From: an uncultured Gemmatimonadota bacterium
GTDB lineage: Bacteria > JAAXHH01
Reading direction: 5' to 3'
DNA: 64,000 nt
Assembly: GCA_951812955.1 (NCBI GenBank)
Contig: OX638340.1
Coordinates: 2,144,001-2,208,000 of the forward strand
The position numbers were made by a program, and so were the translations under genes. Under the pieces are notes generated by a model that was given only the letters and a program-made list of their open reading frames with translations, had not been told where the DNA came from and made no database searches. Positions 60,444-62,098 of the stretch are shown piece after piece. Numbering within the stretch: position 1 is the first letter of the stretch; each line of letters starts with the position of its first letter.

Positions 60444-60504
60444 GATCCGAAACGGCTGGGACTTGGAGCGTTGTCCCTTGGGAAGGACCAGAAGGATTCT
60501 CAGG

Positions 60505-60761
60505 TTAAGGAACCTCTAGTCAAGTTCCTGGCATATACTGCGTAAATAACGGAACCCTTCATTAATTCTGCACGGCTAAGAGGAAGCATATCGAATGCCT
60601 GTCAGGCAAGAAGCATAATCCGTCTAGAAGTAGCGGTCACACTATTTAAGTCCGACCCGACCACGACCGCACAAAAACATCGACAATATACTACACAAAA
60701 TAAAAGGTTAATAACCTAAGGAACCTCTGATCAAGCCCCTGACGTTGTTTTCGTGGATAAA
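60505..60761. mobile_element. Two solo IS5-family left-end remnants (terminal IR copies without transposase) in the AT-rich region upstream of the giant gene
   Basis: ttaaggaacctctagtcaag at 60505-60524, and taaggaacctctgatcaag...gcgttgttttcgtggataaagta at 60717-60761; compare the intact left end at 60861. Confidence 0.5.
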
Positions 60762-60858
60762 GTAGATCATGCTAATATAATACAGGATAAAGAGTGATTT
60801 GTGCGTGAATAAAACGCCATATAAGAAGAATATTACGCGAATATCAGTCTTGGAATAT

Positions 60859-62098
60859 CTTAAAGGAACCTTCGATCAAGTTCTTGGCGTTGTTTTCGTG
60901 GATAAGGTAATATGAACTCGGTATCCGTCGTACGTTGTGCAGCGCCTTCTCAACTTTAAGATCAAACGGGGTACGCGTTCATGAAACAATCGAGTTTTTT
61001 CGATATGGCCTACGATCAGAAGAAGAAAACGCGCAAGGAACGCTTTCTGGGTGAGATGGATGCGGTGCTTCCCTGGGACCTGTTGCTCGCGCCCATCCTG
61101 GCGCACTATCCGAAGGCGGGAGGCGGCAGGCGCCCCATAGGGGCTCCGGTGATGCTCAGGATCTACTTCATGCAGCAGTGGTACGGCCTTGGCGATCCGG
61201 CCATGGAAGACAGTCTCTACGACGTGGAATCGATGCGCCGCTTCGCAGGCGTGGATCTTGGCGGCGTGCCCGACGAGACGACGATCTGCAAGTTCCGCCA
61301 CCTCTTGGAAGCCCATGGACTGACCGAAGCGTTGTTCGAGCAGACAAAGCGCTATCTGTCGGATCGGGGCATGATGGTGAGCGAAGGCACGATCGTGGAT
61401 TCAGGCGATCATCCATGAGCCGTCGTCGACGAAGAACAAGGAGGGTAAGGGGGACCCCGAGATGGCCTTACGCGAAGAAGGGCAACACCTGGCACTTCGG
61501 CATGAAGGCCCACGTGGGCAGCGATCCGAAGGGACGGGTGCACAGCGTGGTGGCCACGCCCGCCTCGGTCCACGACGCCAAGGCGATGGAGGCCTGCCTG
61601 CATGGACAAGAAAAAGCGATCTACGGCGACAAGGCCTATGCGGACCAGGTGAGAAAGCAAAGGGCAGAAGAGGAAGGGATCGTATGGCGGGTGCATCGCA
61701 AGGCCAACAGGGGCAGGCGCCTCAACTGTGCGGACCGGTCGTTCAACCGAAAGAGCAATCGCGTACGAGCAAGGGTCGAACATCCCGTTGGCATCATCAA
61801 AAACCTGTGGGGCTATCGAAAGGTCAGGTACCGGGGTCTTGCCAAGAACACGGCCCATCTCTTCACCCTGTTCGCCCTGGCCAACTTCCAGTCCGAAGGG
61901 AACTGGCGCTCACATGGGAAGCAGTCCGTCCAGACCTGGCGAAACCGAGCACAATGGCCGATACGGGACCCATCTGAGGCCAAAAACACCCTCGCAAGTA
62001 CCCCAAACGACACCATTTTCAACATGATCGTCCTCTAAACTGACTCATATCATACCTCTTGGCCGGACAACCGGGTTGATCAGAGGTTCCTTAAATGA
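60859..62098 (+). mobile_element. IS5-family (IS5/InsH-like) insertion sequence, ~1.24 kb, with imperfect ~20-bp terminal inverted repeats (17/20 matching)
   Basis: IRL cttaaaggaaccttcgatcaag (60859-60880); IRR ttgatcagaggttccttaaatg (62077-62098). Internal transposase homologous to E. coli InsH along its full length. Confidence 0.7.
60981..62038 (+). pseudogene. IS5-family DDE transposase interrupted by two frameshifts (near 61404-61410 and 61465-61472)
   Basis: Frame A 60981-61418 (...GTIVDSGDHP*), frame C [20 protein letters not shown], frame B [19 protein letters not shown]...RARVEHPVGIIKNLWGYRKVRYRGLAKN...IVL* (61178-62038). Collinear with InsH (...[42 protein letters not shown]...). 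Confidence 0.65.

What the first reader, a model, noticed from the sequence alone, without database searches (positions are those of the whole stretch)
60444..62098. IS5-family element with a doubly frameshifted transposase plus two solo left-end remnants directly upstream of the giant gene
The transposase is recognisably InsH-like end to end but needs two single-nucleotide frame changes within ~70 nt to be read through, so it is a decaying copy (or carries homopolymer errors). Upstream of it, two further copies of the left terminal repeat (one with ~45 bp of adjacent IS sequence) sit 144 and 212 bp apart. These are scars of repeated insertion and deletion at the same AT-rich site, immediately 5' of the giant LRR-protease gene, and may influence its expression.
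Basis: seen in the sequence. Interest (0 to 1): 0.5.

Follow-up and report, generated by a model that had tools for sequence, protein, structure and literature searches.

The report
Dead IS5-family transposon with scars
This is a broken copy of an ordinary IS5-type jumping gene, with leftover end fragments, sitting just upstream of a giant surface-protein gene; it is routine genome debris, with one twist: one "leftover" end appears to be part of the element itself.

Summary
Window 60865-62090 is a 1226-bp IS5-family (IS5-group) insertion sequence with 15-bp inverted repeats and TTAA(A) flanks. Two more left-end copies lie at 60509-60534 and 60720-60764, in an AT-rich gap 65 bp upstream of a 1720-aa Big_2/LRR/metalloprotease gene.

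The transposase is more damaged than reported:
- two +1 insertions (about 61403 and 61468);
- a 4-nt deletion (61889/61890);
- a lost stop codon (TAG to TGG, 61915-61917);
- a 3-nt in-frame deletion;
- substitutions at otherwise invariant residues.

The two +1 frameshifts recur identically in five contigs from five other metagenome assemblies. They sit in substitution clusters, not homopolymers, so they are real mutations and not read errors.

The new point concerns the nearer "solo" end. That end plus its 100-bp spacer accompany the IS wherever those contigs reach that far. One contig joins the whole unit to a different right flank. Several contigs begin or end at the limits of this 1371-bp unit (60720-62090), and its outer repeat matches the right end 15/15. 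It is therefore probably the outer end of a defective composite element, not only a local scar. Only the 60509 copy is clearly a local scar.

Any effect on the giant gene is untested. This is an ordinary, unnamed member of a known family, and interest is low.

The parts
60509..60534 (+). Solo left-end remnant ('copy 1'), GGAACCTCTAGTCAAGTTCCTGGCAT, preceded by TTAA (60505-60508). It lies 65 bp upstream of the giant gene's ATG. Local scar.
   Evidence: Also present at the same locus in L004 as GGAACCGCTGATCAAG..., 88.5% identical.
60720..60764 (+). Outer left end ('copy 2'): 45 nt of IS left-end sequence preceded by CTAA. Its terminal 15 nt match the right repeat 15/15. Proposed outer terminus of a 1371-bp composite unit, 60720-62090.
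   Evidence: Present in L004, L005, L010 and L012. L005 and L010 start at its second base.
60765..60864 (+). AT-rich spacer of 100 bp with no detectable IS homology, carried along with the element. The promoter-like TGGATA-N16-TATAAT at 60754-60781 spans the end of copy 2 and the start of this spacer and points into the IS. The spacer ends in TTAAA (60860-60864).
   Evidence: 99-100% conserved in L004, L005, L010, L011 and L012. L010 and L012 carry a 30-nt tandem duplication here.
60865..62090 (+). IS5-family (IS5-group) insertion sequence, 1226 bp. Inner left repeat at 60865-79 is GGAACCTTCGATCAA, with 2 mismatches. Right repeat is at 62076-90. Flanked by TTAAA (60860-64) and TTAAA (62091-95).
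   Evidence: Homology to L001, L002, L003, L006 and L007 (84-92% nt) starts and stops at these ends.
60981..61418 (+). First transposase fragment: 145 aa with the DUF772 DNA-binding part, up to the catalytic D140 codon (61398-61400). Ends at a premature TGA.
   Evidence: The identical 145-aa product is encoded in L004 and L005.
61400..61405 (+). Lesion 1: a 1-nt insertion (about A61403) with three neighbouring substitutions. Frame 0 shifts to frame 1.
   Evidence: alignment against intact L001. Shared by L004, L005, L010, L011 and L012.
61467..61472 (+). Lesion 2: a 1-nt insertion (about T61468) with three neighbouring substitutions. Frame 1 shifts to frame 2.
   Evidence: Shared by L004, L005, L010, L011 and L012.
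61889..61890 (+). Lesion 3: a 4-nt deletion between these two bases (TTCC^AGTCC). The last 10 codons (F-H-L-A-R-R-E-L-A-L-T) fall out of frame.
   Evidence: Present in the window, L010 and L011; absent in L004, L005 and L012.
61915..61917 (+). Ancestral stop codon TAG mutated to TGG.
61017..61018 (+). A 3-nt in-frame deletion in the AAG run (one Lys lost).
   Evidence: Shared with L004 and L005 only.
60496..60523 (-). Sigma-70-like site TTGACT-N16-GAGAAT facing the giant gene. The -35 hexamer lies inside copy 1.
   Evidence: Not above chance (3 sites vs 2.1 expected), and the hexamers differ in L004.
55281..60443 (-). Context: the 1720-aa lipoprotein-like giant gene (Big_2 x4, LRR blocks, HELGH metalloprotease).
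17735..17997 (-). A separate, internally deleted remnant of the same IS family. It keeps left-end nt 1-30, then IS positions 207-334 and 461-553.

Best explanation
This is a defective copy of an unnamed IS5-family (IS5-group) insertion sequence. It lies in a Gemmatimonadota-like genome, in the AT-rich gap upstream of an accessory giant gene.

How the family works (shown):
- It is a DDE transposon with 15-bp GGAACCTCTGATCAA ends.
- It inserts at (T/C)TAA sites.
- Intact relatives encode one 313-aa transposase.

State of this copy (shown): it cannot make transposase. The reading frame breaks one codon after catalytic D140, again 65 nt later, and again 10 codons before the end. The stop codon is gone, and conserved residues and the inner left repeat are mutated.

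The two upstream left ends:
- The copy at 60509 is a relic of an older insertion that was almost entirely deleted (inferred).
- The copy at 60720 plus its 100-bp spacer is physically part of the unit that is inherited with the IS (shown).

Origin and movement of that unit (inferred, about 45-50%):
- The IS landed about 100 bp from an older solo end.
- The intact outer end then paired with the right end, giving a 1371-bp non-autonomous element.
- That element can move or recombine only with transposase supplied by intact copies.

The copies recombine with one another: the window copy is a mosaic of two haplotypes (shown).
For: Family and boundaries:
- NF033581 at 315 bits against a cut-off of 140, plus DDE_Tnp_1 and DUF772.
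- D140, D216, E266 and the R-3-E-6-K spacing are visible in the repaired translation and the A2 alignment.
- Homology to five other copies stops exactly at GGAACC/GGTTCC.
- TTAA/TTAA duplications occur in L002 and L007. This fits IS5's Py-T-A-Pu tetranucleotide target and its preference for AT-rich upstream regions (PMC5493358).

Decay and reality of the lesions:
- Alignment to intact L001 locates each lesion.
- The identical 145-aa fragment and both +1 insertions occur in contigs from ERZ6126425, ERZ23495229, ERZ15614337, ERZ23495265 and ERZ15614686.

Composite unit:
- Copy 2 and the spacer are present in L004, L005, L010 and L012.
- L010 joins the unit to a different right flank (GGTTCC|TATATAC..., DAP epimerase side) that is absent from the window.
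- L005 and L010 start at the same base of copy 2, and L004, L005 and L011 stop 1-2 nt after the right repeat.
- Copy 2 matches the right repeat 15/15; the inner repeat matches 13/15.

Source of transposase in trans: the 90% cluster of P0001 holds many intact 313- and 305-aa proteins. One is annotated 'IS5 family transposase [Gemmatimonadetes bacterium]'.

Mosaic: the window carries the L004/L005 haplotype up to 61678 and the L010/L011 haplotype from 61729.

Deletional decay elsewhere: the remnant at 17735-17997.
Against: - The left flank of the unit in L010 is unknown, because the contig ends there.
- Strain differences in the flanks could explain the contig breaks. The 110 bp left of 60720 are only 61% identical between the window and L004.
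- L010 could be a product of recombination between two IS copies, not a transposition of the composite.
- The three haplotypes could be alleles of one locus in different strains.
- At the window the flanks of the composite are CTAA and TTAA, matching 3 of 4, whereas the inner IS has TTAAA on both sides. Target duplications therefore do not favour the outer end.
- No intact copy lies in the window.
- Two scans of JGI metagenome contigs found no further copies of the composite.
Confidence: 0.85

Rival explanations
1. Both upstream left ends are scars left at this one site by repeated insertion and deletion. The 1226-bp IS is the only element, and nothing larger has ever moved.
For: - Each copy starts right after a (T/C)TAA target.
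- The similarity begins exactly at the IS terminus and does not extend into the upstream flank.
- The inner IS has a perfect TTAAA on both sides.
- A deletion-riddled remnant elsewhere in the window shows that this decay process operates in this genome.
- Haplotype mixing and contig breaks can be explained by strain-level recombination at a single locus.
Against: - L010 carries copy 2, the spacer and the IS with all lesions, yet has a different right flank.
- Contigs from different assemblies begin at the same base of copy 2.
- None of the five frameshift-free relatives has copy 2 or the spacer. The frameshifted contigs that reach that far all have both.
Confidence: 0.4
2. The frameshifts are sequencing or assembly errors, and the transposase is really intact.
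For: No positive evidence was found. The lesions are single-base indels, and read-level data cannot be inspected here.
Against: - The same two insertions occur in five contigs from five other assemblies.
- They are not in homopolymers; the longest base run at either site is 2.
- Each sits among three substitutions.
- Residues invariant in the aligned relatives are also replaced: A to E in IIHAPSS, R to G in GKRDPEM, and F to V in HPFG.
Confidence: 0.02
3. The split ORFs are functional. Either programmed ribosomal frameshifting restores a full transposase, or the 145-aa N-terminal DNA-binding fragment is kept as a regulator or inhibitor of transposition.
For: - Programmed frameshifting occurs in some IS families (established knowledge: IS3, and the IS427 group of IS5).
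- The 145-aa fragment keeps DUF772 and is identical in the window, L004 and L005.
- A near-consensus promoter-like site lies upstream of it.
Against: - Read-through would need two successive +1 shifts plus a third correction near the C-terminus.
- The intact relatives examined (P0001 and the other full-length proteins aligned) use one ORF.
- The L010/L011 variant has a further 1-nt insertion just after the ATG.
- That variant also differs from the window at about five non-synonymous and four synonymous sites in the N-terminal fragment, which looks like relaxed selection.
Confidence: 0.05
4. The IS-derived sequences have been co-opted as the promoter region of the giant gene. The hybrid promoter would take its -35 from the IS end and its -10 from the flank.
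For: - TTGACT-N16-GAGAAT lies at 60523-60496 on the gene's strand, with the -35 inside copy 1.
- The upstream PD40 gene ends in a terminator-like hairpin, so the giant gene needs its own promoter.
- IS5 is known to activate downstream operons, in one case through a fusion promoter (PMC11894529 and PMC2753651, abstracts).
Against: - The number of promoter-like sites is no higher than in shuffled sequence, 3 against 2.1.
- Both hexamers differ in L004 (TTGATC and GAGATT).
- The promoter type of this phylum is unknown.
- There are no expression data.
Confidence: 0.15

Closest known systems
IS5 of Escherichia coli (InsH transposase), IS5 group of the IS5 family
   Same: - One DDE transposase of about 310-340 aa, with an N-terminal DNA-binding domain and a DDE_Tnp_1 domain.
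- Short terminal inverted repeats beginning with GG.
- A tetranucleotide Py-T-A-Pu target (TTAA/CTAA here).
- A preference for AT-rich regions upstream of genes (PMC5493358).
   Different: - Only distantly related in sequence. The best matches in the plasmid collection are all below 60% identity; the top hits are about 48-53%, to Ralstonia IS1021-type and Achromobacter pA81 transposases.
- Different repeat sequence.
- The host is a Gemmatimonadota-like lineage.
- This copy is non-functional.
Intact copies of the same IS in Gemmatimonadota metagenome bins (P0001/L001; MCY4546573.1; 86%-identical copies in OZ245326.1 and OZ252103.1)
   Same: 84-92% nucleotide identity end to end, with the same repeats and the same TTAA flanks.
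   Different: P0001 and other members of its cluster have an uninterrupted 313-aa ORF. None of these relatives has a duplicated left end or a spacer.
IS-derived transposition units that use an alternative end (for example ISEcp1 with surrogate right ends) and non-autonomous IS derivatives mobilised in trans
   Same: If the composite reading is right, an end other than the element's own is paired with the opposite end. The element would also depend on transposase from another copy.
   Different: - A different family; ISEcp1 belongs to IS1380.
- The alternative end here is a genuine old IS end and carries only 100 bp of extra DNA, with no passenger gene.
- The element is full length, so it is not a MITE.
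- Mobility is inferred, not shown.
Solo terminal repeats and IS scars left by deletional decay
   Same: - Copy 1 (26 nt) begins at a TTAA target and has no partner end.
- The remnant at 17735-17997 shows stepwise internal deletions.
   Different: Nothing notable.

Membership tests
IS5 family, IS5 group (insertion sequence) | The transposase matches the curated IS5-family model above its cut-off. | tested here: met
   NF033581 at 315.1 bits against a cut-off of 140, on the frame-repaired translation. Pfam DDE_Tnp_1 at 90.4 bits and DUF772 at 66.3 bits.
IS5 family, IS5 group (insertion sequence) | DDE catalytic triad with R-(3)-E-(6)-K spacing. | tested here: met
   D140 (VD), D216 (YGDKAY), and R262/E266/K273 (RARVEHPVGIIK) are present in the repaired translation. 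D140 and D216 are invariant in the A2 alignment. Assignment of the motif rests on established knowledge of IS4/IS5 transposases.
IS5 family, IS5 group (insertion sequence) | Short terminal inverted repeats that bound a 1.0-1.5 kb element. | tested here: met
   15-bp GGAACCTCTGATCAA repeats; the element is 1226 bp here and about 1231 bp in intact L001. Homology to the other copies ends at the repeats.
IS5 family, IS5 group (insertion sequence) | A 4-bp target duplication of type Py-T-A-Pu. | tested here: inconclusive
   TTAA/TTAA in L002 and L007. CTAA/TTAA in L003. TTAT/TTAA in L001. TTAAA/TTAAA, a 5-bp match, at the window. Consensus target taken from PMC5493358.
IS5 family, IS5 group (insertion sequence) | A single uninterrupted transposase ORF, i.e. 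an autonomous element. | tested here: not met
   The window copy has three frameshifts, a lost stop codon and a mutated inner repeat. The relative L001/P0001 meets this feature. The window copy is therefore a defective member.
IS5 family, IS5 group (insertion sequence) | Demonstrated transposition. | not testable with these tools
   Only indirect evidence: the same defective unit occurs with two different right flanks.
MITE (miniature non-autonomous element) | Small size (tens to a few hundred bp), no transposase gene, and many copies. | tested here: not met
   The unit is 1226 or 1371 bp and retains the whole, broken, gene. Only two flank contexts are known. Two JGI scans found nothing.
Programmed-frameshift transposase (IS3 or IS427 type) | Two overlapping ORFs joined by one conserved -1 slippery site across family members. 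| tested here: not met
   Two +1 corrections plus a third are needed. The intact relatives aligned here have one ORF, and the sites are lineage-specific mutations.

The most novel reading that the evidence does not exclude
A dead IS5-family copy gained a new, better left terminus by landing about 100 bp from an older solo end. The resulting 1371-bp element carries two left ends and no working transposase. It still spreads, or exchanges sequence, between loci and strains using transposase from intact relatives. It sits in a giant-gene islet that is itself exchanged between strains: the islet flanks are 99-100% identical between the window and L012, while the adjacent PD40 gene is only 90.6% identical.
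Probability: 0.45. Interest if true: 0.3.

Novelty: new member of a known kind. Interest (0 to 1): 0.2.

Why it matters
Little beyond annotation.

- **Annotation.** The locus should be labelled as a pseudogenised IS5-family element plus IS scars, not as two or three small "transposase" genes. The indels should not be "corrected".
- **Method.** Frameshifts in a metagenomic window can be validated, without reads, against independent public assemblies.
- **Possible mechanism.** If the composite reading holds, it is a small natural example of an IS recruiting an older solo end as its working terminus. It would also show a defective copy persisting through transposase supplied in trans.
- **Genome context.** The IS debris marks the giant Big_2/LRR/protease gene as part of a 7.4-kb accessory islet. 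The islet is inserted between the PD40 gene and the aminotransferase/riboflavin genes, which are adjacent in two related contigs (L008 and L009). That is useful context for anyone studying that gene.

Tried and rejected
**Looking for the source contig.**
- Exact-protein look-ups for the giant protein, the 178-aa C-terminal ORF and the PD40 protein found nothing.
- No close strain with an empty site could be retrieved. The best PD40 orthologues found by the homology search are 84-89% identical.

**Looking for more copies.**
- Two scans of JGI metagenome contigs found nothing. One used the left-end pattern and one the spacer/inner-repeat junction.
- The single scan of species-representative genomes found only two 86%-identical relatives, in unnamed MAG chromosomes.

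**Other features in the gap.**
- Rfam found nothing in 55000-63000 at E up to 0.1, and tRNA scans found nothing in 54000-64000.
- No right-end remnant pairs with the solo left ends. No IS homology was detected in 60535-60719 or 60765-60864 (blastn, word size 7). Nested-insertion and segmental-duplication origins therefore have no support. The repeats also begin exactly at the IS terminus, not in shared flank.

**Ideas dropped.**
- The right repeat as the boundary of a mobile giant-gene unit. The 586 bp to the right of the IS belong to the same near-identical islet, and no matching end lies beyond the gene's 3' end.
- Programmed frameshifting and sequencing error (see the rival explanations).
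Full report
**What is in the sequence.**
The gap between the giant gene's ATG (60443, minus strand) and the next gene (a PD40/TolB-like gene, 62677-63837, minus strand) is 2.2 kb. Its outer parts are AT-rich, 36-45% GC against 60-70% in the neighbouring genes.

The repeat search found three direct copies of one motif, at 60507-60553, 60718-60764 and 60863-60909, spaced 211 and 145 bp apart. Each forms an inverted repeat with 62073-62095. The core GGAACCTCTGATCAA occurs at four places:
- 60509, with 2 mismatches;
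- 60720, with 0 mismatches;
- 60865, with 2 mismatches;
- 62076-62090 on the other strand, with 0 mismatches.

**Family.**
Translating 60960-62098 in three frames shows one transposase spread over three frames. The stitched 331-aa protein scores as follows:
- 315 bits on NCBIfam NF033581, 'IS5 family transposase' (cut-off 140);
- 90 bits on Pfam DDE_Tnp_1;
- 66 bits on Pfam DUF772.

D140, D216, E266 and the R-3-E-6-K spacing are all recognisable. All matches in the plasmid collection are below 60% identity. The top hits are Ralstonia IS1021-type elements and an Achromobacter pA81 IS5-family transposase, at about 48-53%. This is therefore an unnamed IS.

Much closer relatives exist in metagenomes. 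P0001 is 313 aa, intact and 93-94% identical. Its 90% cluster has 51 members, one of them annotated 'IS5 family transposase [Gemmatimonadetes bacterium]'. The PD40 neighbour also has its best named matches in Gemmatimonadota bins.

**Boundaries.**
Five other copies align with the window at 84-92% nucleotide identity. They are L001 (intact), L002, L003, L006 and L007. In each, homology starts at GGAACC and, where the locus reaches the right end, ends at GGTTCC. The IS proper is therefore 60865-62090, 1226 bp.

L002 and L007 have TTAA on both sides. The window has TTAAA on both sides. L003 and L001 each differ at one base. This fits the Py-T-A-Pu tetranucleotide duplication of IS5 and its liking for AT-rich upstream regions (PMC5493358).

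None of these five relatives has the extra left ends.

**Lesions.**
Measured against intact L001, the window copy has:
1. a 3-nt in-frame deletion in the AAG run after 61017;
2. a 1-nt insertion at about 61403, one codon after the catalytic D140 codon, among three substitutions (GATTCAGGCG vs GACGC-GACG);
3. a 1-nt insertion at about 61468, among three substitutions (GCCTTACGCG vs GCC-AGCACG);
4. a 4-nt deletion at 61889/61890, which puts the last 10 codons out of frame;
5. the stop codon TAG changed to TGG at 61915-61917;
6. replacements at residues invariant in the aligned relatives: A to E in IIHAPSS, R to G in GKRDPEM, and F to V in HPFG;
7. two changed positions in the inner left repeat (TTCG for TCTG).

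**Are the frameshifts real?**
Yes. An exact look-up of the 145-aa first fragment found it in two other assemblies, L004 (ERZ6126425) and L005 (ERZ23495229). Cluster members and a further search led to three more contigs: L010 (ERZ15614337), L011 (ERZ23495265) and L012 (ERZ15614686). All five contigs carry both +1 insertions, base for base.

Neither site is a homopolymer. The 4-nt deletion is shared with L010 and L011 only, and the 3-nt deletion with L004 and L005 only.

**The two upstream left ends are not equivalent.**
- *Copy 1 (60509-60534).* It lies in sequence that L004 shares at 86-92% identity, and L004 has its own version, GGAACCGCTGATCAAG.... Between them, the two alleles carry the family-consensus base at all but one of the 26 positions. 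It is an old scar belonging to this locus.
- *Copy 2 (60720-60764) and the 100-bp spacer.* These behave differently. They are present, 99-100% conserved, in L004, L005, L010 and L012. L011 begins inside copy 2.

Four further observations bear on copy 2:
- L010 is a 63-kb contig that starts at the second base of copy 2. It runs through the spacer, the inner repeat and the broken IS, then continues into a right flank (GGTTCC|TATATAC...; DAP epimerase, an outer-membrane protein, GCS2, DnaK). That flank has no counterpart in the window.
- L005 starts at the same base as L010.
- L004, L005 and L011 stop 1-2 nt after the right repeat.
- Copy 2 matches the right repeat 15/15, and the inner repeat only 13/15.

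Taken together, the inherited unit is 60720-62090, 1371 bp. This defective unit has been joined to at least two different right-hand contexts after acquiring its lesions. That requires either transposase from another copy or recombination with another IS copy.

**How sure is the composite reading?**
Only moderately, about 45-50%, for these reasons:
- The left flank of L010 is unknown.
- Contig breaks could reflect strain differences. The 110 bp left of 60720 are only 61% identical between the window and L004, although both sides of that stretch are 92-100% identical.
- L012 has flanks 99-100% identical to the window on both sides but a different element haplotype. The window itself follows the L004/L005 haplotype up to 61678 and the L010/L011 haplotype from 61729. 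This proves recombination between element copies or alleles. It does not show whether they sit at one locus or several.
- Target duplications do not discriminate, because nearly every flank in this family is TTAA.

**Origin.**
The repeats start exactly at the IS terminus, each just after (T/C)TAA, and do not extend into shared upstream flank. They are therefore transposition junctions and not a segmental duplication.

No IS homology is detectable in 60535-60719 or 60765-60864, and no right-end remnant pairs with them. The older copies were therefore removed by deletion.

A fourth remnant at 17735-17997 retains the left 30 nt and two internal blocks. It shows the same stepwise deletional decay.

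**Context.**
In two related contigs, L008 and L009, the PD40 gene is followed directly by a class IV aminotransferase gene, and in L009 the riboflavin operon comes next. L008's contig ends in the gene after PD40, whose family was not looked up.

In the window the same genes are separated by 7.4 kb (55167-62676). That stretch holds the giant gene, the IS material and 586 bp of low-GC DNA. The finding thus sits in an accessory islet. In L012 the islet flanks are 99-100% identical to the window, while the PD40 coding sequence is 90.6% identical. This suggests the islet was exchanged more recently than the surrounding genes diverged.

**Effect on the giant gene.**
This is untested. A sigma-70-like site, TTGACT-N16-GAGAAT at 60523-60496, faces the gene with its -35 inside copy 1. 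However, such sites are no more frequent here than in shuffled sequence (3 vs 2.1), and the hexamers differ in L004.

IS5 is known to activate downstream operons in E. coli, in one case through a fusion promoter (PMC11894529 and PMC2753651). The idea is therefore reasonable but unsupported here.

**Verdict.**
This is an ordinary, defective, unnamed IS5-family element with IS scars. The nearer 'solo' end is better read as the outer end of a composite defective element. Novelty: a new member of a known kind. Interest is low.

Noticed in passing
window 17735-17997 (minus strand): A fourth, internally deleted remnant of the same IS. It keeps left-end nt 1-30, then IS positions 207-334 and 461-553. 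It lies between the first two of three tandem paralogous MacB_PCD/FtsX permease genes of about 803 aa (15160-17571, 18175-20589, 20699-23110).
   Followed up: partly
window 55167-62676; loci L008, L009, L012: The giant gene plus the IS material form a 7.4-kb insertion between the PD40 gene and the aminotransferase/riboflavin genes. In the related contigs L008 and L009 the PD40 gene has no such insertion after it. In L012 the islet flanks are 99-100% identical to the window but the PD40 coding sequence is only 90.6% identical, which suggests recent exchange of the islet between strains.
   Followed up: partly
window 59311-60239: The 5' part of the giant gene consists of near-perfect 255-bp tandem repeats (four Big_2 domains, 98-100% identical). 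Contigs from other assemblies break inside them.
   Followed up: no
L002 1-6094: Another copy of the same IS (92% nt, with its own frameshift) lies 120 bp downstream of a different giant Big_2/LRR gene. It sits in a low-coverage long-read contig. This could be coincidence, or a recurrent association between this IS and such genes.
   Followed up: no
window 60754-60781 (+); L010 and L012 spacer: A near-consensus sigma-70-like site, TGGATA-N16-TATAAT (10 of 12), spans the end of copy 2 and the spacer and points into the IS. The 30-nt tandem duplication seen in L010 and L012 duplicates exactly this module.
   Followed up: no
window 60610-60719 vs L004: A 110-bp stretch just left of the outer IS end is only 61% identical between two strains, although both sides of it are 92-100% identical. 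The cause is unknown; a further insertion/deletion scar is possible.
   Followed up: partly
window 61729-61994: The 3' 260 nt of the element carries a dense cluster of differences from the L004/L005 haplotype. The same bases are shared with L010, L011 and L012, so the window copy is a recombinant, with the crossover between 61678 and 61729.
   Followed up: yes
window 62640-62652 (minus strand): A terminator-like hairpin with a T-run lies 25 nt after the PD40 stop codon. This implies that the giant gene is transcribed from its own promoter.
   Followed up: no
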